Of a DNA stretch of 64,000 nucleotides, positions 35,219 through 47,062 are shown one piece after another; position 1 is the first letter of the stretch; every line of letters begins with the position of its first letter. The position numbers and the translations under genes were made by a program. The notes beneath the pieces are model-generated. The model searched no databases. It was not told the DNA's origin and was given only the letters and a program-made list of their open reading frames with translations. Source of the stretch: a phage; sequence record PV357172.2; one strand, written 5' to 3'.

Positions 35219-35478
35219 AAATTTACTTGCTAAATGCTTATAAATTCTGTATAATATATTCATAAATTAGGGAACAGCGAGCCGATTACGCTGAGTGCAG
35301 AATCCCAACCGGAGCGCATTGAATAGAGTCGGTGGGTTAGTTGTAAAACTAGTACACAGGGGGCGGCAATCCCGGTTAGTGGCTAGAACGTGTAAAATGA
35401 GGCGTCTGAAACCTCTCCCCTAAACTCTTCTCTAATTTATAAATAGTGGGGTGTGGAAATCACTTATGTAGTAACACT

Positions 35479-35550
35479 GCCGTCCTAGTATAATTGGTAT
35501 TATCAAGCCGTAACTGGTGGAAGATGTAGGTTCGAATCCTACGGTCGGTA
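35479..35550 (+). tRNA. tRNA-like element (possibly degenerate; anticodon not resolved)
   Basis: T-arm GTAGG-TTCGAAT-CCTAC and a 7-bp acceptor with one mismatch; anticodon stem does not fold cleanly. Confidence 0.3.
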
Positions 35551-36052
35551 AGAACTGGATAACTGATGCTTTTAACGTAAAAGCTTCCGAGGTTAGTTGC
35601 GCACTGCCTAAACCACGCGGTAGTTGGTTCCAGACTAACCAACCAGTCTGCTGAATAGTTTTATTACGATTTAACTATGCCCAGGCTAAAGAAGAACTTT
35701 AGAAGGTATTCTAGGATAGTGAAGTTCTTTCTCCATATCGGAGTAGTTTTTCAAGCTATCCACAAAGTGGGAAATGCTGACATGAGAGATGTCACTAATG
35801 GTGCACAATAGCACAGGTAATTCGCGATAACCCCTGTTGAGTAGCAGCAAAAGGCGGGAAGTCATGACCCCAAGCCTAACCGAGTCCTCAATATACCGCA
35901 GGACATAACCACTAAGTCCCCCTGACTTAAACTGGAAAATAATAGACGTTACTGTATTTTGTCTTGAAATACTTAATGAGTGAGACTTATGACTCTCCCG
36001 GTATCGTCTGTATTTTTAAGAGTTTTTACGAGAGTTCTTAAAAATACTTAAA

Positions 36053-36127
36053 CGGGGTGTAGTCTAAGGGAGAGGCAGGAGTCTTCTAAATTCCTTTATG
36101 CAGGTTCGAATCCTGTCACCTCGGCCA
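36053..36127 (+). tRNA. tRNA-Arg (anticodon TCT)
   Basis: Hand-folded cloverleaf: acceptor CGGGGTG/CACCTCG, anticodon loop CTTCTAA, T-arm GCAGG-TTCGAAT-CCTGT, encoded CCA. Confidence 0.65.
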
Positions 36128-36161
36128 ATTTTATTAACTGTAGCTAAAACAAAGGAAATAT

Positions 36162-37109
36162 ATGTTTAATACTAAAAATATGAAAGAACTGACTTCTGAG
36201 CAGAAAGTAATTCGTACTATTAAACGTTGGGGTATTGGTGCTGTAGTTGGTTTAGCAGGTTTAATCCTAGCTTTTAATTCATATACTGTTGTTCAAGACG
36301 GTACTGTTAAAACCCAGACTTTCCTGGGTAAAGTTGACCCTAGCCCAGTATTACCCGGCTTTCATATTGTAAATCCTTTTGCTTCTTTCGATACTTTTAG
36401 TACTAAAGATATTGCCCTAAAATTAGATAAACTTCAGGTTCCTAGCCAGGATAAGTTTAAATCCACTGTTGACCTGACTGTTATGTTGCAGTTTGATGGT
36501 TCTAAGGCACCAATTAACCGTATTAACGCAGGTACTCAGGATCAGGCGTTAGACAAGTATGTAACTGAAAAATTACTGTCTACTATTCGTGAGTTTGGTA
36601 AGTCTGTACCTAAAGCACAAGATTTGTTTGATGCTAAAATTCAGGCTCAATTGCAAACTGCAATTCAACAGGAAGTTGAAGAGTATGCACGCCCATATGG
36701 TTACACAGTTAAGCAGGTATTCCTTCAGGATATTACTTTGCCACCGGTAATCATGGAACAGGTACAGAATACCAAAGTTCGTGAAGAGCAAGTTAATGCT
36801 GCGAAAGCTGAACTGGCCCGCGTTGAACAAGAAGCGCAGCAAAAGGTTAAACAAGCAGAAGCAGACCGTGAAGCTCGCAACAACCAAGCTATTGCTAATG
36901 AACGTGACGCAGATGCTAAACTGTACGCAGCTAAGAAAGAAGCTGAAGCTAACGCCGCATTGCAACGTACCATTACTCCTGAGATGATTCGCTGGAAGCA
37001 ACTGGAAGTTGAAATGCTTCGTGCTGAAAAATACCAAGGTGGTGTACCGCAAACAGTAGTGGGAACTGGTTACGATGGCCAGATGATCATGGATATGCGT
37101 AATAAGTAA
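36162..37109 (+). CDS. SPFH/band-7 (prohibitin/HflK-like) membrane protein
   Basis: N-terminal TM segment, SPFH-like core, Ala/Glu/Gln-rich coiled-coil tail. Confidence 0.55.
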   Translation: MFNTKNMKELTSEQKVIRTIKRWGIGAVVGLAGLILAFNSYTVVQDGTVKTQTFLGKVDPSPVLPGFHIVNPFASFDTFSTKDIALKLDKLQVPSQDKFKSTVDLTVMLQFDGSKAPINRINAGTQDQALDKYVTEKLLSTIREFGKSVPKAQDLFDAKIQAQLQTAIQQEVEEYARPYGYTVKQVFLQDITLPPVIMEQVQNTKVREEQVNAAKAELARVEQEAQQKVKQAEADREARNNQAIANERDADAKLYAAKKEAEANAALQRTITPEMIRWKQLEVEMLRAEKYQGGVPQTVVGTGYDGQMIMDMRNK

Positions 37110-37145
37110 TATCCGCATGTAATCTCTGAAGTAAGCCCTGTGTTC

Positions 37146-37175
37146 CCTGGAGAGCGCAGGGCTTTTCTGTATTTA
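37146..37175 (+). terminator. rho-independent terminator
   Basis: Hairpin CCCTG-GAGAGCG-CAGGG followed by CTTTTCTGTATTT. Confidence 0.55.
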
Positions 37176-37299
37176 AGGCAAAAGAAAAAGCCCATAAGTT
37201 ATTCAACTAAGGTCTTTAGTATTTAATTCTTTAGAATCATATAATATTATTGCAGCAACAACGTGCTAACCTTAAGTGCCCTGCAATTTTCCTCTAAAA

Positions 37300-37350
37300 A
37301 GTTAAAAAATTCGATTGCTTGAATGCTAAATTCTCTGTATAATATATTTA
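37300..37350 (+). promoter_or_regulatory. sigma70-like strong early promoter
   Basis: TTGCTT at 37315-37320, 17-nt spacer, TGTATAAT ending at 37343. Confidence 0.6.
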
Positions 37351-37373
37351 TAAATTTGAGAGAGGAATCAAAT

Positions 37374-38429
37374 ATGATTAAGACTGGTCTAGTAATTGGT
37401 AAGTTCGCACCATTAACGCGTGGTCATATTAACCTAATAAACACAGCAGCAACTATGTGTGAACGAGTTATTGTTGTAGTTAGTCATGATAATCGTTGGC
37501 TGGATAAGCAGAACACACGTGATCAGGAAGTATTACAGTTAAAGAATCGACTTCGTTGGTTAGAACAAACTTACGCGGATATTGAGCACATTTCGGTAGA
37601 GTACATTATTGAAGATGATATTCCTGAATATCCGAATGGTTGGCCGGAATATGCTAGAATCCTTAATGAAAATTACGGACATTTGCCTGAGATCACCGTT
37701 TTCTCTAGCGAACTAGACTATGATGCAGAATATAAGAAATATCTGCCGAAGTTTGGTCATTATATTGTAGATTCTGATCGGACTCGTGTTCCAATCTCAG
37801 CTACAATGATTCGTAATGATCTTATGAAGTATTGGGAGTTTCTTCCTAGCTTAGTTCGTAAAGATTACGTGCGTAAGGTTGTAATCATTGGGACTGAAAG
37901 CTCGGGAAAGACTACTTTAACAAAATACCTTGCGAAGCTATACAACACTTCGTGGGTAGAAGAATATGGCCGAACGTATTGTGAAGTTGATCTAGTTGGT
38001 AACGAAAATCTACTTACCAGTGAAGATTACAGTAAAATTGCGTTCAGACACAAAGAGCTAGAGTTTGAAGCAGAACGTACTGCAAATAAGATCATGTTTG
38101 TGGATACAAATGCTTTTATTACTGAGTTCTACCACAGACTTTATGAACATAGTAAGAACCCTGTGGTTACAGCAATTGCAAAAGTAGAACATTACGATTT
38201 AGTAATTGTTCTAGCGCCTACTGTCAAGTGGGTAGATGATGATTTACGTATTAACTCCGATCGTTCAATTACTTCTGAACTGTTCGAGCAGATGAAGAAA
38301 GAATTTCCAAATCAGTTCCCTGAAGGGCGTACTGTTTACATCGACTCTCCGGACTACAAAGTTCGTATGGACGAAGCAGTAAACGCAGTAGACTGGCTGA
38401 TTCATCACTTTAACGTTGGAGAGTTTTAA
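37374..38429 (+). CDS. NadR-like bifunctional NMN adenylyltransferase / ribosylnicotinamide kinase
   Basis: N-terminal nucleotidyltransferase motif GKFAPLTRGHINLI; C-terminal P-loop IIGTESSGKTTL. Confidence 0.65.
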   Translation: MIKTGLVIGKFAPLTRGHINLINTAATMCERVIVVVSHDNRWLDKQNTRDQEVLQLKNRLRWLEQTYADIEHISVEYIIEDDIPEYPNGWPEYARILNENYGHLPEITVFSSELDYDAEYKKYLPKFGHYIVDSDRTRVPISATMIRNDLMKYWEFLPSLVRKDYVRKVVIIGTESSGKTTLTKYLAKLYNTSWVEEYGRTYCEVDLVGNENLLTSEDYSKIAFRHKELEFEAERTANKIMFVDTNAFITEFYHRLYEHSKNPVVTAIAKVEHYDLVIVLAPTVKWVDDDLRINSDRSITSELFEQMKKEFPNQFPEGRTVYIDSPDYKVRMDEAVNAVDWLIHHFNVGEF

Positions 38430-38430
38430 T

Positions 38431-39108
38431 ATGACTAACTATCTCGTAAATGACTTTAAAAACTGGAAACCTCTGGAATATCTGTGGCTGCTCATAGCGG
38501 TTGTCTTCATTAGTTTAGCAAACTATAATGGTACAGCTCTAGATTGGGCTACTGCAATAACCAATGTGGTTTGTGTTATTCTGGTTGCAAAAGGACGTGT
38601 TTCCAACTATATTTGGGGCTTAGTGGGTGTTCTTACATATGGTATTACAGCTTTAAACGCAGATCTTTATGGTAACGCTGCACTAAACCTGCTATACTAC
38701 GTTCCTATGCAGTTTTATGGAATGTACTTATGGCATAAAAATAAACCAAGTAATCTGCCAGACGTTCCAACTAAGGTTCTGACTAAAGCTCAGGCTTTAT
38801 TAACTCTTGGGATTCTAGCAGTAGCTACTCTAGGCTATGGCAGCTTCCTCGCTACCACAGCAGATCCGTTCCCAATGCTCGATGCATTTACTGCGGTTGG
38901 TAGTGTAATTGCTATGTGGCTTATGGTCAAGCAGTATGCTGAACAATGGCTAATCTGGATTGCCATTAATATTGGTACTGTATACATTTGGTTTGTAACT
39001 GCTCAGTCTACAGGTGCTTCTTATGCAATCCTAGCAATGTGGCTGGTATTCTTTGGTAACTCTGTACTTGGAGCCTATAAAGGGTACTTTGTACGCGTTA
39101 ACAAATAA
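38431..39108 (+). CDS. PnuC-like nicotinamide riboside transporter
   Basis: Multi-TM protein immediately downstream of NadR-like gene; ATG at 38431 after GGAGAG. Confidence 0.55.
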   Translation: MTNYLVNDFKNWKPLEYLWLLIAVVFISLANYNGTALDWATAITNVVCVILVAKGRVSNYIWGLVGVLTYGITALNADLYGNAALNLLYYVPMQFYGMYLWHKNKPSNLPDVPTKVLTKAQALLTLGILAVATLGYGSFLATTADPFPMLDAFTAVGSVIAMWLMVKQYAEQWLIWIAINIGTVYIWFVTAQSTGASYAILAMWLVFFGNSVLGAYKGYFVRVNK

Positions 39109-39198: not shown

Positions 39199-39290
39199 GG
39201 AAGATTAACCCTAATTGGTAAGGGAGCATCTTGCTAAGTTGCCAGTAGCTGTGGAAACACGGTGTATCGGTTCAAGTCCGATATCTTCCT
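39199..39290 (+). tRNA. tRNA-Ser (anticodon GCT), long variable arm
   Basis: Perfect acceptor GGAAGAT/ATCTTCC, anticodon loop TTGCTAA, variable-arm hairpin, T-arm ATCGG-TTCAAGT-CCGAT, encoded CCA. Confidence 0.7.
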
Positions 39291-39298
39291 CCAAATTT

Positions 39299-39373
39299 GG
39301 TTCTCAAGCTCATTTGGTATGAGCCGTCGCCTCATAAGCGAAAGGTAGGTAGGTTCGAATCCTCCGGGAGCCA
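39299..39373 (+). tRNA. tRNA with CAT anticodon (Met or Ile2)
   Basis: Acceptor GGTTCTC/GGGAGCC with G-U pairs, D-stem GCTC/GAGC, anticodon loop CTCATAA, T-loop TTCGAAT, encoded CCA. Confidence 0.65.
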
Positions 39374-39393
39374 CCAGATAACTAGGAGACTTT

Positions 39394-39944: not shown

Positions 39945-40027
39945 GGATCTGTGGTGGAATTGGCAATACACACCATGCTTAAAACGTGGCGCTTAAATGA
40001 TTGAGGGTTCGAGCCCCTCCAGATCCA
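39945..40027 (+). tRNA. tRNA-Leu (anticodon TAA), long variable arm
   Basis: Perfect acceptor GGATCTG/CAGATCC, anticodon arm CCATG-CTTAAAA-CGTGG, T-arm GAGGG-TTCGAGC-CCCTC, encoded CCA. Confidence 0.7.
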
Positions 40028-40182
40028 CCAAATTAAGGAAGTAAAAATGAAATCTATTAAGAAAGCACTGCGTAAATTTATGTATTGTCGTTTTCATAGC
40101 ATCAAGGCTTCAACTAATGGTACTACTTACGATCGCTATGATCCTAAGTTTGGCTTACATTCTAAATAACTGGAGAAAACAA

Positions 40183-40754: not shown

Positions 40755-40882
40755 CTGATACAGCACTGAGCAAGTTCTTTAAAATTTGACTTGCTCAGTA
40801 CCTTAAAACTTGGTATAATAGTTATCTAATTTGGAAACATATTTAAAAGTATTCAAATACTAGTTTAAACACTTTTAAATGT

Positions 40883-40966
40883 ACATCGTTGGCAGAATGG
40901 CTATTGTAGCGGTCTGTAAATCCGTGCCCTTCGGGATTGGTGGTTCGAATCTTACACGGCCCGCCA
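40883..40966 (+). tRNA. tRNA-Tyr-like element (GTA anticodon loop), possibly degenerate
   Basis: D-arm and anticodon arm (loop CTGTAAA) fold, variable-arm hairpin GCCC-TTC-GGG, TTCGAAT T-loop, CCA present; T-stem and acceptor pair poorly in my reading. Confidence 0.3.
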
Positions 40967-41068
40967 AATTCTGTGTAGAGTTAAGTAAACCGGTAGCCAA
41001 CCAGCTATCATTGCTGACATCGAATTCAGCCACAGATACCATTTTCATTAATAACTGAGGAAATAGAT

Positions 41069-41839: not shown

Positions 41840-41901
41840 TCTAACGGTTAGGATACTCCCCTGTCACGGGAGAGGTAGGGTTTCGATTACCCTTAGTACC
41901 G
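41830..41901 (+). tRNA. tRNA-Asp (anticodon GTC)
   Basis: Perfect acceptor GGTACTA/TAGTACC, anticodon arm CTCCC-CTGTCAC-GGGAG, T-arm AGGGT-TTCGATT-ACCCT, CCA; 5' end overlaps HNH stop codon. Confidence 0.7.
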
Positions 41902-41910
41902 CCAAATTAT

Positions 41911-41984
41911 ACATCCATAGCTCAATTGGTTAGAGCTACCGCCTCTTAAGCGGTAGGTTCTAGGTTCAAGTCCTAGTGGGTGTA
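41911..41984 (+). tRNA. tRNA-Lys (anticodon CTT)
   Basis: Acceptor ACATCCA/TGGGTGT, D-stem GCTC/GAGC, anticodon arm ACCGC-CTCTTAA-GCGGT, T-arm CTAGG-TTCAAGT-CCTAG, CCA. Confidence 0.7.
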
Positions 41985-41987
41985 CCA

Positions 41988-42200
41988 AACATCAGAGCAG
42001 CGTGATGTACTGCAAAGACCCAAAGTCCGGGGTGGACTTCTTGATTCAAAGGAGCAGGCACTAATTATCATTCTAGCGTGGTGGAGAGGGGACACCAGCT
42101 TGCCGAGGGTAGAAGCTCGTTCGATTCGAGTGAAAGAATGGTTCTCGTAAATCCGCACAAGTGATAGCAGGTTCAAGTCCTGCCTAGATTGACTTATTAT
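41988..42200 (+). ncRNA. structured noncoding segment with two orphan T-arm-like hairpins (pseudo-tRNAs or small RNA)
   Basis: GCTCG-TTCGATT-CGAGT and GCAGG-TTCAAGT-CCTGC T-arm-like elements with no pairing acceptor stems found; no credible ORF. Confidence 0.3.
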
Positions 42201-42271
42201 GCGTTCGTAGTTAAAAGGTATAATTTTTGGTTGCCAACCAGAAGTTGAGGGTTCGATTCCCTCCGACCGCA
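42201..42271 (+). tRNA. tRNA-Gly (anticodon GCC)
   Basis: Acceptor GCGTTCG/CGACCGC (one mismatch), anticodon arm TTTGG-TTGCCAA-CCAGA, T-arm GAGGG-TTCGATT-CCCTC, CCA. Confidence 0.65.
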
Positions 42272-42587
42272 CCAAATTTAGGTTTCTGCTTCCTAGAGAA
42301 CGGACTCCTAGATAAACAAGGCGATGAGTTTCCGGCCGGTTCTAGTCGCTGAAAATCCTCCCGACCAGGTAGGTGTAAGTAAATGAAAGTTTACTTATTG
42401 AGTAGGTTCCGATAGACCGGCGGGTCTATTCTGGCATTTAAGAGAGGTCTCGCAAACTTCTTTGTCAGCCGTGGGGTTGGTAGCCTCCAGGTGGCCTACA
42501 CAATAAGTAAATTTATTAAAAATTCATTTGCTATTCTGCTTAATTCTCTGTATAATATATTTTATAAAGTGAGTTAACAAAAATTAA

Positions 42588-42660
42588 CAGTGCGTAGCGC
42601 AGTTGGTAGCGTGGGAGCCTTGGGTGCTTCGGGTCGCAGGTTCGAGTCCTGCCGCACTGA
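42588..42660 (+). tRNA. tRNA-Pro (anticodon TGG)
   Basis: Perfect acceptor CAGTGCG/CGCACTG, anticodon arm GGAGC-CTTGGGT-GCTTC, T-arm GCAGG-TTCGAGT-CCTGC, CCA; directly after promoter module. Confidence 0.7.
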
Positions 42661-42669
42661 CCAAACAAT

Positions 42670-42744
42670 TGCGGGTTAGATCTCTGGTAGAGATCGCTAG
42701 TCTCATAAGCTAGAAAGAGGTAGGTTCGATTCCTGCACCCGCTT
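42670..42744 (+). tRNA. tRNA with CAT anticodon (Met/fMet or Ile2)
   Basis: Anticodon loop CTCATAA, T-arm GTAGG-TTCGATT-CCTGC, CCA; position 1-72 appears unpaired (U-U) in my fold. Confidence 0.6.
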
Positions 42745-42767
42745 CCATTTTAATAGAGGATTTCGAA

Positions 42768-42931
42768 ATGAAAGTATTTCGATTAGTAGTAAGTGACAAA
42801 CGGTTAGGTAAGAATACATCAAAATCCTTACTTGCTCATTATGGTAAAAATTGGGATGAAGTAATGGCAGAGTTTAATACTAATCACCCTTACTTGAAAG
42901 TTCACTCTATTAAGGAAGTTTATGCTTATTA
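42768..42931 (+). CDS. small protein (about 54 aa)
   Basis: Below track threshold; ATG at 42768 after AGAGGA; overlaps start of next gene. Confidence 0.35.
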
Positions 42932-43395
42932 ACAGGGTGCTTCAAGCTCTAGATCTTCCAGAGCTCTTTACTATTACCGACCCCTTAATACATCGGTATA
43001 TGGAAAAGTATAATGAAATCTCTGGTAAAAAAGGGAAACTAAAATCCTCAGAATTTAAGTTCTGTTATAGAATGGCAGCATTAAACCTCTTAAAGTACAA
43101 GAGGGAGCATAAAATCCCTATAACAGAAGGATTTGTCTATGTAATAGGTAGTCCAGCATGGCCTGGACTATATAAGATAGGTATGACAGTAGATGTGAAT
43201 GAAAGACTGTCTAGTTATCAAACATATTCGCCTTATCGTGATTACAAGTTATACCATTTCAGATTCTCCTCGGACAAGAGAAGAACTGAAAAAGCATTAC
43301 ATAACCTTCTGAAGGACTACAAAGTATCAGGAGAATGGTTTGAAGTACCTCTGTTAGACGCCTTCAAACTATTAGTAGAAAATTTGGATTGCTAA
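42922..43395 (+). CDS. T5orf172/GIY-YIG-like domain protein
   Basis: Motif GFVYVIGSPAWPGLYKIGMT...R...E; AAGGAAG RBS. Confidence 0.5.
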   Translation: MLINRVLQALDLPELFTITDPLIHRYMEKYNEISGKKGKLKSSEFKFCYRMAALNLLKYKREHKIPITEGFVYVIGSPAWPGLYKIGMTVDVNERLSSYQTYSPYRDYKLYHFRFSSDKRRTEKALHNLLKDYKVSGEWFEVPLLDAFKLLVENLDC

Positions 43396-43460
43396 CTCAA
43401 CTGGATAAGAGTACCGGACCTTTAATCCGTCAGTTCTGGGTTCGAATCCCAGGCAATCCA
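43386..43460 (+). tRNA. tRNA-Lys (anticodon TTT)
   Basis: Perfect acceptor GGATTGC/GCAATCC, anticodon loop CCTTTAA, T-arm CTGGG-TTCGAAT-CCCAG, CCA; 5' end overlaps last codons of upstream CDS. Confidence 0.65.
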
Positions 43461-43748
43461 CCAATTTCAAGAAAAACTCAGTTGCTTGATGCTTAATTTC
43501 TTGTTATAATATTTATATAAATTGATGAGGAGAAATCCTCATCATAGTTCACTAAGGTATTAGCTCGACCTAGGACTGGCTGCCAAAAAGCACGATCCCT
43601 ACGATTTGGGAGAAGTTCTAGATTAGTCCACTAGATTCAGCGGCAACTGAATAGTGTATCGGTTTTGCGAGATGACGCGGTTCCTTCCGCTCGAAGCGAA
43701 GGTGCTGTAGTTACGCCGAGCTAATAGCCTTAGTAAACTAAGGAATTT

Positions 43749-43819
43749 GGGGATATAGTTTAATGGTAGAACATCTGCTTTGCACGCAGAAGACGAGGGT
43801 TCAACTCCCTCTTTCTCCA
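43749..43819 (+). tRNA. tRNA-Ala (anticodon TGC)
   Basis: Acceptor GGGGATA/TTTCTCC (one mismatch), anticodon arm TCTGC-TTTGCAC-GCAGA, T-arm GAGGG-TTCAACT-CCCTC, CCA. Confidence 0.65.
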
Positions 43820-43827
43820 CCAAATTT

Positions 43828-43909
43828 GGGGCTATGCTGGAACTGGTAGACAATACGGCCTTAGATTCCGTAGCTTAAATGCGTGGGAGTTCGAGTCTCC
43901 CTAGCCCCA
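43828..43909 (+). tRNA. tRNA-Leu (anticodon TAG), long variable arm
   Basis: Perfect acceptor GGGGCTA/TAGCCCC, anticodon loop CTTAGAT, T-arm GGGAG-TTCGAGT-CTCCC, CCA. Confidence 0.65.
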
Positions 43910-43928
43910 CCAACTTATAGGGTAATGT

Positions 43929-44513
43929 ATGCAGTTTGTACCAATAAAAGATGCACCAGGGTATTTAGTAAATGAAACAGGGGATGTGTTATCTACATTT
44001 ACTAATAAAATCTTATCAAGATATATAGTTGATGGGTACCCTGCTGTAAAATTACAGATAAATGGTAAGCAAACTTCGGTACTTATACACCGAATTATTT
44101 CTCATGTATTTGGGGACTTATATAATCTATTTGACCCTGAATTAGAAGTAGATCACAAGGATAGAGATAGGCTGAATCTATCTAAAGATAATCTTCAAGT
44201 TTTATCAAAAATAGAACATCAGAAGAAAACTAATAAAGATAATGGATGGTCTGATAGTAGAGTACCTTGCCCCTTATGTGGAAATCTAATGCTTCAGAGA
44301 TCAGTAACATGTACAAATTGTAAGCCAAAACCTACAGGAAAGTTAATAAAACCAGAATTGTCCTTAGAAGACATAACTGAAAAGGTTTTATTAATGGGGT
44401 GGGTTAAGGCAGCTAAAGATCTAGAAGTATCAGAGTCCACTTTACGTAGACGATATACTAAACTAACCGGATTAAGCCCGAAAGTATTAACAGAACAACG
44501 GAAAAGCAAATAG
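43929..44513 (+). CDS. HNH endonuclease with zinc finger and C-terminal HTH
   Basis: HNH region ELEVDHKDRDRLNLSKDNLQVL; CPLCG...CTNC zinc finger; paralog of 41258-41839. Confidence 0.65.
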   Translation: MQFVPIKDAPGYLVNETGDVLSTFTNKILSRYIVDGYPAVKLQINGKQTSVLIHRIISHVFGDLYNLFDPELEVDHKDRDRLNLSKDNLQVLSKIEHQKKTNKDNGWSDSRVPCPLCGNLMLQRSVTCTNCKPKPTGKLIKPELSLEDITEKVLLMGWVKAAKDLEVSESTLRRRYTKLTGLSPKVLTEQRKSK

Positions 44514-44590
44514 ACTGGTGACTAAACCCGATTGGAAATCGGTTGAGTGGTAGCAATACCGCCTTATGGGTTCAACTCCCATCTTTTCCG
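44500..44590 (+). tRNA. tRNA-Ser (anticodon GGA), long variable arm
   Basis: Perfect acceptor GGAAAAG/CTTTTCC, anticodon loop TTGGAAA, T-arm ATGGG-TTCAACT-CCCAT, CCA; 5' end lies inside last codons of HNH gene. Confidence 0.6.
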
Positions 44591-44605
44591 CCAAACAATT
44601 TATAT

Positions 44606-44697
44606 GGTAGGTCAATCCAATGGCTGGCGCTGGACTCCGACTTGAAATCGGTTGATCGTAGTGATACGGTGTAAGGGTTCGATCCCCTTACCTACCT
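44606..44697 (+). tRNA. tRNA-Ser (anticodon TGA), long variable arm
   Basis: Perfect acceptor GGTAGGT/ACCTACC, anticodon loop CTTGAAA, T-arm AAGGG-TTCGATC-CCCTT, CCA. Confidence 0.65.
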
Positions 44698-44955
44698 CCA
44701 AATCTTGAAGTATGCCGGAATCGGTAGACGGGGCTGCCTAAAAGGTTTATAGGGAACATCCACTCCCTGCAACATACCTCATAAAGCGGCTGAGATAAAT
44801 GGTCTATCTCGTGAAGGTTCAAGTCCTTCTGCTTCTTGATACATCTATGGCTCAAAGTGTAACGGTGCTATTTGATGCTCTTGGTAAGACTTCCCCGACA
44901 TGCGTTCGGGAGTAAGCTGCTAAGACTAGAGTAGAAGAGTTTCTGAGAGCCGCCA

Positions 44956-45070
44956 CAATTGAAAATTCGTACTCGTCTTGAGCTGCGTGCAATAGGAGAT
45001 AACTTGATTAGTATTCTAGAACATGCTAATTGAGGATGGTTTCGCTAACCCTGCGAGTTTTCAATTGTGG
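44956..45070. repeat. 14-bp perfect inverted repeat GCCACAATTGAAAA / TTTTCAATTGTGGC separated by about 88 nt
   Basis: Read directly; distal arm overlaps the 5' acceptor of tRNA-His. Confidence 0.5.
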
Positions 45071-45140
45071 CTATATCATAATTGGTTAATGATCCTGATT
45101 GTGAATCAGGCCTATGTGGATTCGAATTCCACTAGCCACC
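45067..45140 (+). tRNA. tRNA-His (anticodon GTG)
   Basis: Perfect acceptor GTGGCTA/TAGCCAC, anticodon arm CCTGA-TTGTGAA-TCAGG, T-arm GTGGA-TTCGAAT-TCCAC, C discriminator, CCA. Confidence 0.65.
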
Positions 45141-45168
45141 CCAAATTAACTTAAATAGGAAATAAAAT

Positions 45169-45377: not shown

Positions 45378-45450
45378 TGGAGTGTAGCTCAACTGGCAGA
45401 GCGACGGTTTCTGACACCGTAGGTTTCTAGTTCGATCCTAGACATTCCAG
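45378..45450 (+). tRNA. tRNA-Gln (anticodon CTG)
   Basis: Acceptor TGGAGTG/CATTCCA, D-stem GCTC/GAGC, anticodon arm ACGGT-TTCTGAC-ACCGT, T-arm TCTAG-TTCGATC-CTAGA, CCA. Confidence 0.65.
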
Positions 45451-45459
45451 CCAAACAAT

Positions 45460-45534
45460 TGGGGATTAGCTTAGCTTGGCCTAAAGCTTCGGCCTTTGAA
45501 GTCGAGATCATTGGTTCAAATCCAATATCCCCTG
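45460..45534 (+). tRNA. tRNA-Gln (anticodon TTG)
   Basis: Anticodon arm TCGGC-CTTTGAA-GTCGA, T-arm ATTGG-TTCAAAT-CCAAT, CCA; first acceptor pair mismatched in my fold. Confidence 0.6.
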
Positions 45535-45545
45535 CCAAACAATAA

Positions 45546-45618
45546 GCGATTAAGCACACGGGTTGTGCCGCAGGCCTTCCAAGCCCCGCTGAGTAGGGTT
45601 CGATTCCCTCTAGCCGCT
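45546..45618 (+). tRNA. tRNA, anticodon uncertain (possibly TCC, Gly)
   Basis: T-arm with TTCGATT loop, acceptor with one mismatch, CCA; anticodon stem weak in my fold. Confidence 0.4.
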
Positions 45619-45638
45619 CCAACTTTAAGGAAACATTT

Positions 45639-45860: not shown

Positions 45861-46014
45861 TAACCTAAAATTAAGGGTTGACAAACAAAAGAAATACGTT
45901 GAGGTTGAATTAGGCGAAGAACGCTTAAAGCTAACTTTCGAGTTTCTTCAGCAGTTGGCTATGACAGTCATGACTGATAAGTCTCCTGTTATTGAAAAAG
46001 AAATCCCGTTGAAA
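45853..46014 (+). CDS. small protein (about 53 aa)
   Basis: Below track threshold; ATG overlaps upstream stop (ATGGCTGA). Confidence 0.35.
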
Positions 46015-46025
46015 TAGGAAGCAAC

Positions 46026-46418
46026 ATGGAGTTTACTTGTTTAAATTGCGGAATCACAAAACCTAAAAGTAGGGGTTCCGCAGGTAAGTATTGTGGTGCT
46101 GCTTGTCAGCAGGAGTACCAGACAAAGCAAAAAGTATTAAAGTGGCTGGCAGGTGAAGAACCTGGTTATACTGGTAAAGCTGCACAATTAAAACCTTTTG
46201 TTAGGAAGTGGCTGTGGGATACTCGTGGTACTGCTTGTGAAGTATGTGGTTGGGATGGGAAACATCCAATTGACGGAGCAGTTTTAACTGAGGTAGATCA
46301 TATAGATGGAGATGCAACTAACTGTTCTCCAGAAAATCTAAAGATTCTCTGCCCTAACTGTCACTCTATGACACCTACGCATAGGGCCAGAAATAGAGTT
46401 TCAACAAGACAACGATAG
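46026..46418 (+). CDS. small HNH endonuclease (130 aa)
   Basis: HNH/zinc motifs TEVDHIDGDATNCSPENLKILCPNCH. Confidence 0.6.
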   Translation: MEFTCLNCGITKPKSRGSAGKYCGAACQQEYQTKQKVLKWLAGEEPGYTGKAAQLKPFVRKWLWDTRGTACEVCGWDGKHPIDGAVLTEVDHIDGDATNCSPENLKILCPNCHSMTPTHRARNRVSTRQR

Positions 46419-46489
46419 CTCTTAAAGCATTGCTGGCGATGCAACGGTCTTGTAAACCGTGGAACCGGGTTCGATTCCTGGTGGGAGCA
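46418..46489 (+). tRNA. tRNA-Thr (anticodon TGT)
   Basis: Acceptor GCTCTTA/TGGGAGC, D-stem GCAT/ATGC, anticodon arm ACGGT-CTTGTAA-ACCGT, T-arm CCGGG-TTCGATT-CCTGG, CCA; first base is last base of HNH stop codon. Confidence 0.7.
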
Positions 46490-46567
46490 CCAAAATTAAA
46501 AAATTCATTTGCCTTCTCTCTTATTTCTTGTTATAATATTTATATAAATTAATGAGAGGGAAACCAA

Positions 46568-46861
46568 ATGAAACGTTATCTTTCTGTCGTGTTCCAAACT
46601 GGTGGTCAACGCTACACTTATGAATTTCCTGAGTCCTGGAAAATTAAAGAAGGTGATCAAGTTGTTGTATTAACACCTCGTGAAGGCTTCAAAGTAGTAA
46701 CGGTTAAACAAGTATTTCCAAAAGATCACGAACCATCTAAGGCTATTCAGTACAAGATGATTCATGGTCTGGTACGAAAAGTACCTAGAACAGAAGTCGA
46801 AGTAGATAAAACTGGGGAAGCTAAATACCAGTATACCTCTTACTTAGATGAAATGATGTAA
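46568..46861 (+). CDS. hypothetical protein (97 aa)
   Basis: ORF track; promoter module and GAGAGGGAAACC RBS upstream. Confidence 0.5.
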   Translation: MKRYLSVVFQTGGQRYTYEFPESWKIKEGDQVVVLTPREGFKVVTVKQVFPKDHEPSKAIQYKMIHGLVRKVPRTEVEVDKTGEAKYQYTSYLDEMM

Positions 46862-46862
46862 T

Positions 46863-46935
46863 GCTCTGATAGTTCAACAGGTTAGAACAGACGACCGATA
46901 ATCGTCAAATCTTGGTTCGATCCCAAGTCGGAGTA
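46863..46935 (+). tRNA. tRNA-Ile (anticodon GAT)
   Basis: Acceptor GCTCTGA/TCGGAGT, D-stem GTTC/GAAC, anticodon arm GACGA-CCGATAA-TCGTC, T-arm CTTGG-TTCGATC-CCAAG, CCA. Confidence 0.7.
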
Positions 46936-46944
46936 CCAAATTAT

Positions 46945-47017
46945 AGTTAGTTGGCAGAGTGGTTATGCACCTCCTTCATACGGAGCGACTACAGTGGTTC
47001 AAATCCACTACTAACTA
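46945..47017 (+). tRNA. tRNA with CAT anticodon (Met or Ile2)
   Basis: Perfect acceptor AGTTAGT/ACTAACT, anticodon loop TTCATAC, T-arm AGTGG-TTCAAAT-CCACT, CCA. Confidence 0.6.
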
Positions 47018-47023
47018 CCAAAC

Positions 47024-47062
47024 AGAGGATCTGGTCATTGTACCAGATCTCTGTGTTTATTA
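47024..47062 (+). terminator. rho-independent terminator closing the tRNA cluster
   Basis: Hairpin GATCTGGT-CATTGT-ACCAGATC followed by TCTGTGTTTATT. Confidence 0.55.

What the first reader, a model, noticed from the sequence alone, without database searches (positions are those of the whole stretch)
35219..47062. Large tRNA cluster (about 22 genes) interleaved with HNH endonucleases; several tRNAs overlap CDS 3' ends
Hand folding gives tRNAs for Arg, Ser (three), Leu (two), Asp, Lys (two), Gly, Pro, Ala, His, Gln (two), Thr, Ile and three CAT-anticodon species, most with encoded CCA. Four tRNAs begin within or at the stop codon of an upstream gene (41830, 43386, 44500, 46418), so tRNA processing would cleave those mRNAs at their 3' ends. 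Three HNH genes sit inside the cluster, suggesting endonuclease-mediated mobility of tRNA cassettes.
Basis: partly seen in the sequence, partly recalled or inferred. Interest (0 to 1): 0.55.

Follow-up and report, generated by a model that had tools for sequence, protein, structure and literature searches.

The report
T5-type phage tRNA gene cluster
This is the long-known transfer-RNA gene region of a T5-like bacteriophage: 21 tRNA genes, eight small stable RNAs and four selfish homing-endonuclease genes, each sitting directly in front of a tRNA gene. It is real and correctly read, but ordinary for this phage family.

Summary
ARAGORN and Rfam each find 19 tRNAs, 20 in union. A relaxed ARAGORN run plus homology to curated T5 genes adds Ser(UGA) and Gly(UCC). 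That gives 21 tRNA genes, all with encoded CCA, between 36053 and 47020. A tRNA-like module also lies at 35479-35550.

All four claimed tRNA/CDS overlaps are exact: 10, 10, 14 and 1 nt. The four overlapped ORFs are the cluster's four endonuclease genes. Three are HNH; the fourth (42922-43395) is T5orf172/GIY-YIG-like, not HNH.

The window is a T5-like phage (Demerecviridae). Its layout matches feature for feature the curated tRNA regions of T5 (AY543070) and phage 5 (AJ604531), including promoters and the stable RNAs RNAX, RNA1-3, RNAI, RNAIII, RNAIV and RNA2H. HE3 is the T5 F-TflI orthologue (96% aa) with the same 14-nt overlap.

The idea that tRNA processing truncates these endonuclease mRNAs is already published for T4 segB and the T5 F-Tfl enzymes.

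Comparison shows the endonuclease genes are sporadic, precise insertions into spacers 5' of tRNA genes. Each is tightly linked to one divergent allele of the downstream tRNA.

Verdict: already known; low interest.

The parts
35216..35270 (+). Early promoter, counterpart of T5 P16-17 (TTGCTA-17-TATAAT at 35227-35255)
   Evidence: Consensus scan. 96% identical to the annotated T5 promoter.
35268..36052 (+). RNAX, a 785-nt 'stable RNA with unknown functions', ending at the first base of tRNA-Arg. It contains a tRNA-like module at 35479-35550.
   Evidence: 99.2% identical over its full length to rnaX of phage 5, AJ604531. Rfam tRNA model 35.5 bits for 35479-35550. The whole RNA is not unusually stable when folded (z -1.1).
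36053..36127 (+). tRNA-Arg(UCU)
   Evidence: 99-100% identical in 10 relatives.
36162..39108 (+). Protein-coding interruption of the cluster: SPFH/Band 7 protein (36162-37109), terminator (37133-37164), NadR-like protein (37323-38429) and PnuC (38416-39108)
   Evidence: Pfam, terminator scan, annotations of relatives.
39199..39376 (+). tRNA-Ser(GCU) 39199-39293 and tRNA-Ile2(CAU) 39299-39376, downstream of a TTGCTA-17-TATAAT promoter at 39156-39184
   Evidence: The CAT species is assigned to Ile2 by position and 86-88% identity to curated tRNAI2.
39945..40030 (+). tRNA-Leu(UAA)
40881..40965 (+). Degenerate tRNA-like remnant at the deletion junction where relatives carry Tyr-Glu-(Trp)-Phe-Cys-Asn. 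It has a GUA anticodon loop and a tRNA-Asn 3' end, and its top three acceptor pairs are broken.
   Evidence: Not called by ARAGORN or Rfam. Fold z +0.63. The same junction occurs in DT57C, DT571/2 and Gostya9.
40969..41041 (+). RNA3, a putative tRNA-like stable RNA
   Evidence: 100% identical to T5 and phage 5 rna3. Fold z -2.9.
41258..41839 (+). HE1: HNH homing endonuclease of the F-Tfl family (193 aa). Its last 10 nt lie inside tRNA-Asp.
   Evidence: Pfam NUMOD4 plus HNH_3. 37-43% aa identity to F-TflI, F-TflII and F-TflIII, and 100% to the IrmaTschudi 'putative homing endonuclease'. Present in 58 of 233 matching records.
41830..41987 (+). tRNA-Asp(GUC) 41830-41904 (the HE1-linked allele) and tRNA-Lys(CUU) 41911-41987
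42069..42193 (+). RNA2, a tRNA-like stable RNA. It overlaps the mechanical ORF 41980-42150 and a weak ARAGORN 'Ala' call.
   Evidence: 91-92% identical to T5 and phage 5 rna2..
42201..42274 (+). tRNA-Gly(GCC)
42400..42572 (+). RNAIV stable RNA (42400-42502) and promoter P13a (42509-42572)
   Evidence: 97-98% and 91% identical to the annotated T5 and phage 5 features. TTGCTA-17-TATAAT at 42528-42556.
42588..42747 (+). tRNA-Pro(UGG) 42588-42663 and initiator tRNA-fMet(CAU) 42670-42747
   Evidence: The fMet gene is 100% identical to curated T5 tRNAfM.
42922..43395 (+). HE2: T5orf172/GIY-YIG-type endonuclease gene (157 aa). Its last 10 nt lie inside tRNA-Lys(UUU).
   Evidence: Pfam MUG113 at 2.8e-19 and T5orf172 at 3e-14. 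48% aa identity to T5.069, which overlaps tRNA-Asn in T5. Present in 85 of 241 matching records.
43386..43463 (+). tRNA-Lys(UUU), the HE2-linked allele
43472..43729 (+). Promoter P13b (43472-43536) and RNA2H stable RNA (43558-43729)
   Evidence: 97% and 97-98% identical to the annotated T5 and phage 5 features.
43749..43912 (+). tRNA-Ala(UGC) 43749-43822 and tRNA-Leu(UAG) 43828-43912
43929..44513 (+). HE3: orthologue of T5 hegC (HNH endonuclease F-TflI, 194 aa). Its last 14 nt lie inside tRNA-Ser(GGA).
   Evidence: 95.9% aa identity to T5 hegC, with the same position and the same 14-nt overlap. Pfam HNH_3. The empty site in Kenya-K41 is CCA|AACAAC|GGAAAAG.
44500..44700 (+). tRNA-Ser(GGA) 44500-44593 and tRNA-Ser(UGA) 44606-44700
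44704..45065 (+). Stable RNAs RNA1 (44704-44848, tRNA-like), RNAI (44849-44955, ends in GCCGCCA) and RNAIII (44960-45065)
   Evidence: 86-100% identical to the annotated T5 and phage 5 features. Folds.
45067..45143 (+). tRNA-His(GUG) with encoded G-1
45378..45621 (+). tRNA-Gln(CUG) 45378-45453, tRNA-Gln(UUG) 45460-45537 and tRNA-Gly(UCC) 45546-45621
   Evidence: Gly(UCC) is 96-99% identical to curated tRNAG1 and carries a G4A change that breaks pair 4:69.
46026..46418 (+). HE4: small HNH endonuclease gene (130 aa). The G of its TAG stop codon is G1 of tRNA-Thr.
   Evidence: Pfam HNH and HNH_3. Present in only 8 of 369 matching records. Relatives have a 9-10-nt spacer at this site.
46418..46492 (+). 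tRNA-Thr(UGU), a variant allele with a fully compensated anticodon stem
46499..46563 (+). Promoter P11
   Evidence: 94% identical to T5 P11. TTGCCT-17-TATAAT with a TG extension.
46863..47050 (+). tRNA-Ile(GAU) 46863-46938, elongator tRNA-Met(CAU) 46945-47020 and a terminator-like hairpin at 47027-47050

Best explanation
This is the early-region tRNA gene cluster of a T5-like phage (Demerecviridae, Markadamsvirinae).

Host sigma-70 RNA polymerase starts at strong T5-type promoters, the counterparts of P16-17, P15, P14, P13 and P11. It makes long primary transcripts that carry tRNAs, small stable RNAs and short ORFs together. Host RNase P and 3' trimming enzymes release 21 tRNAs whose CCA ends are already encoded.

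The tRNAs favour codons that are common in the AT-rich phage and rare in the host (AUA, CUA, UUA, AGA, ACA, GGA, UCA). They probably also keep translation going when host tRNAs are depleted or cleaved.

Four free-standing homing-endonuclease genes (three HNH, one T5orf172/GIY-YIG-like) have inserted precisely into the short spacer 5' of a tRNA gene. None has a stop codon of its own before the tRNA, so each reads into the tRNA and stops there. The overlap is therefore the footprint of the insertion.

The inferred consequence is that RNase P cleavage at the tRNA 5' end removes the stop codon from the endonuclease mRNA. This would leave a non-stop message and keep expression of a potentially toxic nuclease low.

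The endonuclease genes spread between co-infecting T5-like phages by cleavage and repair. They drag the adjacent tRNA allele or alleles with them, which helps make the region a fine-grained mosaic.

Shown here: the identity of the region, the tRNAs, the endonuclease families, the insertion boundaries, the sporadic distribution and the allele linkage. Inferred: processing-coupled down-regulation, homing activity, and the physiological role of the tRNAs.
For: Identity of the region
- 634 phage records match, nearly all T5-like phages of Salmonella, Escherichia and Klebsiella. The best cover 80% at 91% identity.
- The layout corresponds feature by feature to the curated T5 and phage 5 tRNA regions. 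RNAX is 99.2% identical, RNA3 and RNAIII 100%, RNA2H 98%, RNAIV 97-98%, and tRNAfM and tRNAM 100%. Promoters are 88-99% identical where the T5 feature aligns in full; P15b aligns over only 26 nt.

tRNAs
-.

Endonucleases
- Pfam assignments.
- HE3 is 95.9% identical to T5 F-TflI. HE1 is 37-43% identical to F-TflI, II and III. HE2 is 48% identical to T5.069.

Insertion footprints
- Relatives without the endonuclease keep the upstream ORF or tRNA and the downstream tRNA, separated by only 6-10 nt.
- The final codons and the stop of HE3 are made of spacer plus tRNA sequence that already exists in the empty site of Kenya-K41.

Sporadic distribution
- HE1 is in 58 of 233 matching records, HE2 in 85 of 241, HE3 in 27 of 174 and HE4 in 8 of 369.

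The overlap rule
- In this window all 4 endonuclease ORFs overlap a tRNA. The 3 PHROG-supported ORFs that precede a tRNA end 1-8 nt before it.
- Across 11 genomes, 21 of 25 endonuclease-like ORFs end 1-24 nt inside the next tRNA, against 21 of 88 other ORFs.

Linkage and conversion tracts
- HE1 is present in 58 of the 75 records that carry its Asp allele. HE2 is present in 86 of the 87 that carry its Lys(UUU) allele.
- A tract of 98-100% identity to Shin27 and IrmaTschudi spans orf61, HE1, Asp, Lys(CUU), RNA2 and Gly(GCC). Identity then falls to 92% at RNAIV and 57-62% at tRNA-Pro downstream, and to 78% at orf97a upstream in IrmaTschudi. In Shin27 the near-identity extends further upstream.

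Codon usage
- Relative to an E. coli sample, AUA is 4.1x, CUA 4.8x, UUA 2.9x and AGA 2.9x as frequent in the phage.

Literature
- Processing-coupled control was proposed for segB and the T5 F-Tfl genes, and SegB drives inheritance of the T4 tRNA region (PMC2330249).
- Homing endonucleases are the main source of differences among T5-like genomes, and phage tRNAs have codon-supply and anti-defence roles (PMC10644984).
- T5orf172 is a GIY-YIG subfamily of homing-endonuclease genes that is abundant in T5-like phages (PMC10448857).
Against: - There are no RNA-end, expression or cleavage data for this phage. RNase P truncation and its effect on endonuclease levels are inference only.
- HE1's HNH_3 score (18.5 bits) is below the Pfam cut-off, so its family assignment rests on NUMOD4 and on homology to the F-Tfl proteins.
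- The codon-usage association over all codons is weak (one-sided Mann-Whitney p = 0.08).
- The allele-linkage counts come from megablast, which finds only endonuclease variants of about 80% identity or more, and from records that are not phylogenetically independent and include GenBank/RefSeq duplicates.
- Some short non-endonuclease ORFs in relatives also overlap tRNA starts, so overlap is not exclusive to endonuclease genes.
- Many tRNAs that are not next to an endonuclease in this window are equally dimorphic, so endonucleases cannot be the only driver of the mosaic.
Confidence: 0.82

Rival explanations
1. The tRNA/CDS overlaps are neutral leftovers of insertion and have no regulatory consequence. 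The endonucleases would be translated from unprocessed precursors, or would hardly be needed at all, and tRNA processing would be irrelevant to them.
For: - The stop codons are supplied by target-site sequence that already exists in empty sites, so no selection needs to be invoked.
- Overlap lengths vary from 1 to 24 nt, with no conserved motif.
- Some short non-endonuclease ORFs overlap too.
Against: - Twenty-one of 25 endonuclease-like ORFs, at about 12 different tRNA sites and from at least three protein families, lack an upstream stop. Conserved non-endonuclease ORFs typically stop 1-21 nt before the tRNA.
- RNase P cleavage at a tRNA 5' end is efficient and would necessarily remove the stop codon.
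- The same arrangement is seen for T4 segB, where it has been proposed to be regulatory (PMC2330249).
Confidence: 0.3
2. The tRNA genes are true cargo: endonuclease-plus-tRNA cassettes are the units by which T5-like phages gain and lose tRNAs, so the endonucleases built the cluster.
For: - Each endonuclease is tightly linked to one divergent tRNA allele.
- Near-identical tracts are centred on HE1, HE2 and HE3 in otherwise ~90% identical genomes.
- Same-anticodon tRNAs fall into alleles of 95-100% versus 60-77% identity, in a mosaic pattern.
- SegB does this for the T4 tRNA region.
Against: - At all four sites a tRNA of the same anticodon is present in genomes without the endonuclease. What is exchanged is an allele, not a new specificity.
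- The one large change in tRNA content here is loss of Tyr through Asn. It is a deletion with a degenerate tRNA remnant at the junction and no endonuclease beside it.
- Arg, His, fMet and Met are invariant.
Confidence: 0.3
3. The main job of the tRNA set is counter-defence rather than codon supply. It would replace host tRNAs destroyed by anticodon nucleases, retron or PARIS-type effectors, or phage-induced host shut-off.
For: - Literature: T5 tRNA-Tyr rescues retron Eco7 toxicity, and phage tRNAs are predicted to resist anticodon nucleases (PMC10644984 and PMC10264068).
- The set includes frequently targeted species such as Lys(UUU), Gln, Arg and fMet.
- The overall codon-usage signal is only weak (p = 0.08).
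Against: - This phage has lost tRNA-Tyr, along with Glu, Trp, Phe, Cys, Asn and Val, so at least the Tyr-based counter-defence is absent.
- The U34 tRNAs that are kept match exactly the codons most enriched in the phage relative to the host.
- The two roles are not mutually exclusive.
Confidence: 0.35
4. The hand-folded tRNAs are mostly chance cloverleaves or pseudogenes.
For: Two elements are only tRNA-like: 35479-35550 has no CCA and a weak anticodon arm, and 40881-40965 has a broken acceptor stem. Gly(UCC) has an A4.C69 mismatch.
Against: - Nineteen calls reach Rfam gathering score, with E-values down to 7e-14.
- All 21 have CCA ends and orthologues in curated records. For the T5 and phage 5 versions of many of these tRNAs, those records carry experimental notes on conversion to amber suppressors.
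Confidence: 0.01

Closest known systems
tRNA gene region of bacteriophage T5 (GenBank AY543070, features T5.055-T5.081) and of Salmonella phage 5 (AJ604531), curated annotation
   Same: - Same order of modules: P16-17, RNAX, tRNA-Arg, the SPFH ORF and so on to tRNA-Ile, tRNA-Met and the GrcA-like ORF.
- Same promoters and the same eight stable RNAs.
- Same endonuclease in the same place: hegC (F-TflI) between tRNA-Leu(UAG) and tRNA-Ser(GGA), with a 14-nt overlap.
- Other T5 and phage 5 endonuclease genes also end inside tRNAs: hegD in Gln by 23 nt, T5.069 in Asn by 24 nt, and hegB in Pro by 8 nt.
   Different: - 21 tRNAs against 24 in T5. Tyr, Glu, Trp, Phe, Cys, Asn and Val are missing, while Lys(CUU), Gly(GCC), Leu(UAA) and an intact Gln(CUG) are present.
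- A NadR-PnuC module of the Epseptimavirus type replaces T5.076-T5.079.
- HE1, HE2 and HE4 occupy sites that are empty in T5.
- Many tRNAs are alternative alleles, only 60-77% identical to the T5 copies.
Epseptimavirus phages IrmaTschudi (MZ501076), Shin27 (LC788709) and SE24 (MK972707)
   Same: - Best overall nucleotide matches, at about 91%.
- HE1 is 99.5-100% identical and at the same site in IrmaTschudi and Shin27 (SE24 lacks it). HE2 is 85% identical and at the same site in all three. The 10-nt overlaps are the same.
- They share the NadR-PnuC module.
   Different: - They carry 28-29 annotated tRNAs, including the Tyr-to-Asn block, Val, a second Ala and Arg(ACG).
- They lack HE4. All but SE24 lack HE3.
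- They have protein-coding sequence, including another endonuclease gene, where this window has Tequintavirus-type RNAX.
Phage T4 tRNA gene cluster with the GIY-YIG homing endonuclease SegB (PMC2330249)
   Same: - A free-standing homing endonuclease gene lies inside a phage tRNA cluster.
- The stop codon sits at the 5' edge of the next tRNA, so tRNA maturation cuts between the last sense codon and the stop. HE4 has exactly this geometry.
- The endonuclease targets tRNA genes and drives preferential inheritance of the flanking tRNA genes.
- Two stable RNAs of unknown function lie in the cluster.
   Different: - The phage family is unrelated.
- T4 has 8 tRNAs and one endonuclease. Here there are 21 tRNAs and four endonucleases from two superfamilies.
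- Cleavage and homing are shown experimentally for SegB and are not shown for the proteins in this window.
Reduced tRNA sets of the Tequintaviruses DT57C, DT571/2 and Gostya9
   Same: They have the same deletion junction that removes Tyr through Asn. The same degenerate tRNA-like remnant (91% identical) is followed by RNA3.
   Different: DT57C keeps only 16 tRNAs and has no endonuclease genes in the cluster.

Membership tests
T5-type (Markadamsvirinae) early tRNA gene region | Nucleotide homology and collinearity with the T5 and phage 5 tRNA regions | tested here: met
   634 matching phage records. Collinear blastn blocks. Annotated features map at 86-100% identity.
T5-type (Markadamsvirinae) early tRNA gene region | T5 early promoters (TTGCTA-17-TATAAT) driving mixed tRNA/ORF transcription units, all on one strand | tested here: met
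   Consensus sites at 35227, 39156, 42528 and 46509. Homologues of P16-17, P15a, P15c, P14a, P13a, P13b and P11. Promoter activity itself was not tested.
T5-type (Markadamsvirinae) early tRNA gene region | Presence of the non-tRNA stable RNAs (RNAX, RNA1, RNA2, RNA3, RNAI, RNAIII, RNAIV, RNA2H) | tested here: met
   All eight map to the window. None matches an Rfam family.
tRNA (Rfam RF00005) | Covariance-model score at or above the gathering threshold (29 bits) | tested here: met
   19 hits at 35.5-72.3 bits. Ser(GGA) and Ser(UGA) score best against the related tRNA-Sec model, at 43.9 and 37.6 bits, because of their long variable arms. Gly(UCC) is supported only by relaxed ARAGORN and by 96-99% identity to curated tRNAG1.
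tRNA (Rfam RF00005) | Functional 3' end (CCA) and an intact acceptor stem | tested here: met
   All 21 have encoded CCA. Exceptions: A4.C69 in Gly(UCC). The elements at 35479-35550 and 40881-40965 fail this feature and are not counted as tRNAs.
HNH (His-Me finger) free-standing homing endonucleases, T5 F-Tfl group | HNH catalytic motif or domain | tested here: met
   HE3 scores 26.0 bits on HNH_3, above the 24.8 cut-off. HE4 scores 23.5 bits on HNH, above 21.4. HE1 is below the HNH_3 cut-off (18.5 bits) but passes NUMOD4, has the EVDH...N...H motif, and is 37-43% identical to F-TflI, II and III.
HNH (His-Me finger) free-standing homing endonucleases, T5 F-Tfl group | Sporadic presence at an otherwise conserved intergenic site, with precise boundaries | tested here: met
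   58/233, 27/174 and 8/369 records. Empty sites have 6-10-nt spacers.
HNH (His-Me finger) free-standing homing endonucleases, T5 F-Tfl group | Site-specific cleavage of the endonuclease-less allele, and super-Mendelian inheritance in crosses | not testable with these tools
   Activity is reported in the literature for T5 F-TflI, II and IV (Akulenko et al. 2004, cited). That paper is not held. HE3 is 96% identical to F-TflI.
T5orf172 (GIY-YIG subfamily) homing endonuclease genes | T5orf172/MUG113 domain above the Pfam threshold | tested here: met
   HE2 scores 69.9 bits on MUG113 (cut-off 22.3) and 53.8 bits on T5orf172 (cut-off 20). It is 48% identical to T5.069 (172 aa), presumably the ORF that gave the Pfam family its name (the naming link is my inference).
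T5orf172 (GIY-YIG subfamily) homing endonuclease genes | Recognisable DNA-binding domain (CapR, DUF723 or DUF4397 zinc finger), as in most family members | tested here: not met
   Pfam shows no domain in residues 1-69 of HE2 at E <= 0.01. Absence of a hit is weak evidence. Sporadic distribution (85/241) still fits a mobile gene.

The most novel reading that the evidence does not exclude
Endonuclease genes in T5-like tRNA clusters may follow a general, selected rule. They carry no stop codon of their own and terminate inside the next tRNA: 21 of 25 cases, at about 12 different tRNA sites, in 11 genomes. Each is locked to one strongly divergent allele of that tRNA.

On this reading the tRNA genes themselves are the homing targets. 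The striking dimorphism of same-anticodon tRNAs (60-77% versus 95-100% identity) would be the trace of an arms race between endonucleases and cleavage-resistant tRNA alleles. RNase P processing would act as an obligatory brake, producing a non-stop mRNA and SsrA tagging of the nuclease.

The individual ideas exist in the literature for T4 segB, and as a personal communication for T5. The family-wide rule and the allele linkage have not, as far as the searchable literature shows, been documented.
Probability: 0.3. Interest if true: 0.4.

Novelty: already known. Interest (0 to 1): 0.15.

Why it matters
There is little new biology. T5's tRNA region, its stable RNAs and its F-Tfl endonucleases were mapped decades ago and are annotated in GenBank.

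The practical value is a correct annotation of this window:
- 21 tRNAs and their isotypes;
- four endonuclease genes, one of them not HNH;
- eight stable-RNA loci that automatic pipelines miss or overwrite with spurious ORFs;
- a loss of seven tRNA specificities, including tRNA-Tyr, which in T5 counters a retron defence.

The comparative by-products may interest people who work on selfish nucleases and phage mosaicism. These are the endonuclease-stops-in-tRNA rule, the linkage between endonucleases and tRNA alleles, and the module-by-module mosaic. They extend known principles rather than overturn them.

Tried and rejected
- IMG/VR pattern scan with the HE1-linked tRNA-Asp allele. It returned only two contigs, whose lengths match GenBank phages already in the 'phages' collection, so it added nothing. 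I used the 'phages' collection for linkage counts instead.
- Folding all of RNAX. It is not more stable than shuffled sequence (z -1.1), so there is no support for one global structure. ARAGORN run with introns allowed gives only dubious calls in RNA1, RNA2 and RNAX.
- Reading the element at 40881-40965 as a clean Tyr(5')/Asn(3') recombinant. Its 5' part matches Tyr and Asn alleles equally well (37 versus 36 of 56 positions). I therefore report it only as a degenerate tRNA-like remnant with an Asn 3' end.
- Global codon-usage test. The trend is in the expected direction but not significant (p = 0.08). It used mechanical long ORFs and a 50-kb E. coli sample, so it is only indicative.
- Akulenko et al. 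2004, the primary paper on F-TflI, II and IV, is not in the held library. What I say about those enzymes comes from citing papers and GenBank notes.
- A high-accuracy global MAFFT alignment of the whole cluster timed out. I replaced it with a faster mode, so per-feature identities in strongly rearranged stretches are approximate.
- I considered and rejected the idea that the endonuclease ORFs are decayed pseudogenes. They are full length, 96-100% identical in protein to annotated orthologues, and keep their catalytic motifs.

Full report

Yes. ARAGORN at default settings reports 19 tRNA genes. All are on the + strand between 36053 and 47020, and there are none elsewhere in the 64-kb window. 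The Rfam tRNA covariance model at its gathering threshold also reports 19, with E-values from 7e-14 to 1e-3. Eighteen calls are shared. ARAGORN alone finds Ser(GGA) at 44500-44593, which scores best against the related tRNA-Sec model because of its long variable arm. Rfam alone finds a tRNA-like element at 35479-35550.

A relaxed ARAGORN run adds Ser(UGA) at 44606-44700 and Gly(UCC) at 45546-45621. Both carry CCA. Both are 95-99% identical to tRNAs in related T5-like phages: tRNA-Gly(UCC) is 96% identical to the curated T5 gene, and Ser(UGA) is 95% identical to the SB9 and K41 copies but only 68% to T5's.

The count is therefore 21 tRNA genes. All have an encoded CCA followed by short AA-rich spacers.

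By position and identity to curated T5 and phage 5 genes, the three CAU-anticodon tRNAs are:
- tRNA-Ile2 at 39299 (86-88% identical);
- initiator tRNA-fMet at 42670 (100%);
- elongator tRNA-Met at 46945 (100%).

The four overlaps are exact:
- ORF 41258-41839 ends 10 nt inside tRNA-Asp.
- ORF 42922-43395 ends 10 nt inside tRNA-Lys(UUU).
- ORF 43929-44513 ends 14 nt inside tRNA-Ser(GGA).
- The final G of the TAG stop of ORF 46026-46418 is G1 of tRNA-Thr.

**2. What the overlapped genes are**

All four are endonuclease genes, and they are the only four in the cluster. Pfam gives the following:
- 41258-41839 (HE1): NUMOD4 plus HNH_3.
- 43929-44513 (HE3): HNH_3.
- 46026-46418 (HE4): HNH and HNH_3.
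- 42922-43395 (HE2): MUG113/T5orf172, which is not HNH.

T5orf172 is a GIY-YIG subfamily of homing-endonuclease genes that is abundant in T5-like phages (PMC10448857).

Protein comparisons place them as follows:
- HE3 is 95.9% identical to T5 hegC (F-TflI).
- HE1 is a 37-43% paralogue of F-TflI, F-TflII and F-TflIII, and is 100% identical to a 'putative homing endonuclease' of phage IrmaTschudi.
- HE2 is 48% identical to T5.069 (172 aa), presumably the ORF after which the Pfam family is named; that link is my inference.
- HE4 is a small HNH protein with only local similarity to TflIV.

**3. What the region is**

The window comes from a T5-like phage (Demerecviridae, Markadamsvirinae). Megablast of 35000-47200 hits 634 phage records. 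Almost all are T5-like phages of Salmonella, Escherichia and Klebsiella, and the best cover 80% of the query at 91% identity.

Two curated records annotate this region in detail: T5 (AY543070) and the 'tRNA gene region' of Salmonella phage 5 (AJ604531). Their features map onto the window directly.

| Feature | Window coordinates | Identity |
|---|---|---|
| RNAX | 35268-36052 | 99.2% to phage 5, full length |
| RNA3 | 40969-41041 | 100% |
| RNA2 | 42069-42193 | 91-92% |
| RNAIV | 42400-42502 | 97-98% |
| RNA2H | 43558-43729 | 97-98% |
| RNA1 | 44704-44848 | 86-98% |
| RNAI | 44849-44955 | 92-93% |
| RNAIII | 44960-45065 | 98-100% |
| P16-17 | 35216-35270 | 96% |
| P15a | 37295-37369 | 99% |
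| P15c | 40401-40467 | 88% |
| P14a | 40773-40842 | 97% |
| P13a | 42509-42572 | 91% |
| P13b | 43472-43536 | 97% |
| P11 | 46499-46563 | 94% |

The consensus scan independently finds TTGCTA-17-TATAAT sites at 35227, 39156 and 42528, and a TTGCCT-17-TATAAT site with a TG extension at 46509. The small ORFs between the tRNAs all belong to phage protein families of unknown function.

The end coordinate (47062) is just past a hairpin that follows the last tRNA.

**4. The overlaps are already on record**

- In T5, hegC overlaps tRNA-Ser(GGA) by the same 14 nt, hegD overlaps tRNA-Gln(CUG) by 23 nt, and T5.069 overlaps tRNA-Asn by 24 nt.
- In phage 5, hegB (F-TflIII) overlaps tRNA-Pro by 8 nt.
- In IrmaTschudi, the HE1 and HE2 orthologues overlap tRNA-Asp and tRNA-Lys by 10 nt each.

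The regulatory reading is also published. Brok-Volchanskaya et al. (PMC2330249) propose that maturation of tRNA-Arg cuts the T4 segB mRNA between its last sense codon and its stop codon. They state that similar lowering of expression by transcript processing was proposed for the T5 F-Tfl endonucleases. They also show experimentally that SegB cleaves tRNA genes and drives preferential inheritance of the T4 tRNA region.

**5. What the comparison with relatives adds**

*Sporadic, precise insertions.* Among records that match each locus, the endonuclease is present in these numbers:

| Gene | Records with it | Records matching the locus |
|---|---|---|
| HE1 | 58 | 233 |
| HE2 | 85 | 241 |
| HE3 | 27 | 174 |
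| HE4 | 8 | 369 |

Genomes without the endonuclease keep the upstream ORF or tRNA and the downstream tRNA, separated by only 6-10 nt. In Kenya-K41 the HE3 site reads CCA|AACAAC|GGAAAAG. At the HE4 site, relatives have a 9-10-nt spacer. The last codons and stop of HE3 are made of spacer and tRNA sequence that already exists in the empty site. The overlap is thus the footprint of inserting a gene with no stop codon of its own.

*The overlap is a rule for endonuclease genes.* In this window all 4 endonuclease ORFs overlap a tRNA. The three family-supported ORFs that precede a tRNA end 8, 8 and 1 nt before it. Across this window and 10 relatives, 21 of 25 endonuclease-like ORFs end 1-24 nt inside the next tRNA. 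These lie upstream of about 12 different tRNA genes. Among other mechanical ORFs near a tRNA start, 21 of 88 overlap. The genomes are related, so the nominal p of 7e-8 overstates the evidence.

*Linkage to one allele of the downstream tRNA.* Same-anticodon tRNAs in these phages fall into sharply different alleles, 95-100% versus 60-77% identical, in a mosaic pattern. Arg, His, fMet and Met are invariant.
- The HE1-linked tRNA-Asp allele is found in 75 records, and 58 of them have HE1. No record has HE1 without it.
- The HE2-linked tRNA-Lys(UUU) allele is found in 87 records, and 86 of them have HE2.
- The two Asp alleles share an identical 20-nt anticodon arm but differ almost everywhere else.
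- The HE4-linked tRNA-Thr differs from the common allele mainly by a fully compensated anticodon stem.

*Near-identity tracts centred on the endonucleases.* From orf61 through HE1, Asp, Lys(CUU) and RNA2 to Gly(GCC), identity to Shin27 and IrmaTschudi is 98-100%. It then falls to 92% at RNAIV and 57-62% at tRNA-Pro downstream, and to 78% at orf97a upstream in IrmaTschudi; in Shin27 the near-identity extends further upstream. The unit Leu(UAG)-HE3-Ser(GGA) behaves the same way against SE24 and T5.

Taken together, this is what homing with co-conversion of flanks predicts. However, a tRNA of the same anticodon is present at every site with or without the endonuclease. What moves is an allele-replacement tract, not a new tRNA specificity. 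Many tRNAs that are not next to an endonuclease here are equally dimorphic.

**6. tRNA content**

All nine relatives first sampled carry Tyr, Glu, Phe, Cys and Asn (and most carry Trp) between Leu(UAA) and Asp. This window does not, and it also lacks Val and Arg(ACG). Against Shin27, 1.2 kb is missing, from the start of tRNA-Tyr to inside tRNA-Asn.

At the junction (40881-40965), directly downstream of promoter P14a, lies a tRNA-like remnant:
- It has a GUA anticodon loop.
- Its 3' end is that of tRNA-Asn.
- Its top three acceptor pairs are broken.
- Neither ARAGORN nor Rfam calls it, and it does not fold better than shuffled sequence.

The same junction exists, at 91% identity, in DT57C, DT571/2 and Gostya9. 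DT57C has only 16 tRNAs. Reduced sets are therefore known too.

**7. How it most likely works**

*Shown or directly readable:* the tRNAs, stable RNAs and short ORFs lie on one strand behind strong sigma-70-type promoters, so they must be co-transcribed and then cut apart.

*From established knowledge:* RNase P makes the tRNA 5' ends, and encoded CCA makes 3' maturation simple.

*Supported by sequence statistics:* the U34 tRNAs read the codons that are most over-represented in the phage relative to an E. coli sample. AUA is 4.1x, CUA 4.8x, UUA 2.9x, AGA 2.9x, ACA 2.4x, GGA 1.9x and UCA 1.9x as frequent. The test over all codons is only a trend (p = 0.08).

*From the literature:* a second role is rescue from host tRNA-targeting defences (PMC10644984 and PMC10264068).

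*Inferred:* RNase P cleavage would remove the stop codon from each of the four endonuclease mRNAs. The messages would end ...AAAGUUAAA...AGAAAAUUU...CAGAACAAC and ...ACAACGAUA. This would give non-stop messages and low nuclease levels. The nucleases would cut endonuclease-less or alternative alleles in co-infecting relatives, and repair would copy the endonuclease gene together with its tRNA allele. None of these inferred steps was or could be tested here.

**8. Novelty and verdict**

Every element of the finding is already annotated or published for T5-like phages: the cluster, the interleaved endonucleases, the overlaps, the processing idea and the mobility idea. The window is a new mosaic of known modules. 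It combines a Tequintavirus-type RNAX (99.5% to OSYSP), an Epseptimavirus-type NadR-PnuC module, and endonuclease-centred tracts that are 99.4-99.8% identical to three different phages.

The family-wide 'stop inside the tRNA' rule and the linkage between endonucleases and tRNA alleles are tidy extensions that I did not find stated in the searchable literature. They are incremental.

Novelty: already known. Interest: 0.15.

Noticed in passing
window 35268-36052, 40969-41041, 42069-42193, 42400-42502, 43558-43729, 44704-45065: Eight non-tRNA 'stable RNAs with unknown functions' take up about 1.6 kb of the cluster: RNAX, RNA3, RNA2, RNAIV, RNA2H, RNA1, RNAI and RNAIII. They are annotated only in a few curated GenBank records. 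None matches an Rfam family, and I found no open-access paper on them. RNA1 and RNA2 have tRNA-like T arms and acceptor stems with 27-41-nt insertions. RNAI has an acceptor-like terminal helix and ends in GCCGCCA.
   Followed up: partly
window 44960-45065; L001, L004, L005, L006 and L009 upstream of tRNA-His: RNAIII exists in three alleles of about 68, 111 and 126 nt with unrelated interiors. All are framed by AATTGA...TCAATT. Each closes with a 12-15-bp terminal helix of different sequence that abuts G-1 of tRNA-His. RNAI likewise has two alleles with identical ends and a replaced interior. The terminal helix, rather than the sequence, appears to be what is conserved.
   Followed up: partly
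window 40754-41069: This phage lacks the Tyr-Glu-Trp-Phe-Cys-Asn block found in most relatives, and also lacks Val and Arg(ACG). tRNA-Tyr is the T5 tRNA reported to counter retron Eco7 (PMC10644984). A degenerate tRNA-like remnant sits at the junction (40881-40965), downstream of an intact P14a promoter. The same junction occurs in DT57C, DT571/2 and Gostya9.
   Followed up: yes
window 36053-47020 compared with L001-L010: The mosaic is extremely fine-grained. Adjacent 75-300-bp modules (single tRNAs, small ORFs, stable RNAs) switch between about 100% and about 55-65% identity to any given relative. Arg, His, fMet and Met are invariant. Chimeric tRNA-Asp alleles, apparently recombined at the shared anticodon arm, seem to exist in Kenya-K45 and JLBYU43, where only the 5' or the 3' half matches.
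   Followed up: partly
window 45546-45621: tRNA-Gly(UCC) carries G4A, which creates an A4.C69 mismatch in the acceptor stem. All eight relatives that share this Gly(UCC) allele have G4. The tRNA is also atypical for covariance models (below the Rfam threshold), although the T5 version is a documented functional tRNA.
   Followed up: partly
window 41980-42150: This 56-aa ORF is annotated as a hypothetical protein in IrmaTschudi. It starts inside the 3' end of tRNA-Lys(CUU) and runs across the stable RNA RNA2, so it is probably a spurious gene call. Several related GenBank records annotate no tRNAs at all in this region, for example SE24.
   Followed up: no
window 37295-39108: A NadR-like adenylyltransferase/kinase and a PnuC nicotinamide riboside transporter sit inside the tRNA region, behind a copy of promoter P15a that is 98.7% identical to T5's. 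They replace T5.076 and the oppositely oriented T5.077-079 module of T5. This is an NAD+ salvage module typical of Epseptimavirus, next to a Tequintavirus-type RNAX.
   Followed up: no
window 34775-35218: The ORF just upstream of the cluster gives a weak YqeY-like (GatB/Yqey) Pfam hit, below the cut-off. Related records label it variously as 'recombination-related exonuclease' or 'tRNA amidotransferase'. A tRNA-related role would be interesting, but it is unsupported here.
   Followed up: no
window 1-64000: GC skew changes sign near 22 kb, negative before and positive after. This fits a switch in coding strand between divergently transcribed gene blocks. The whole tRNA cluster lies in the + strand block.
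   Followed up: no
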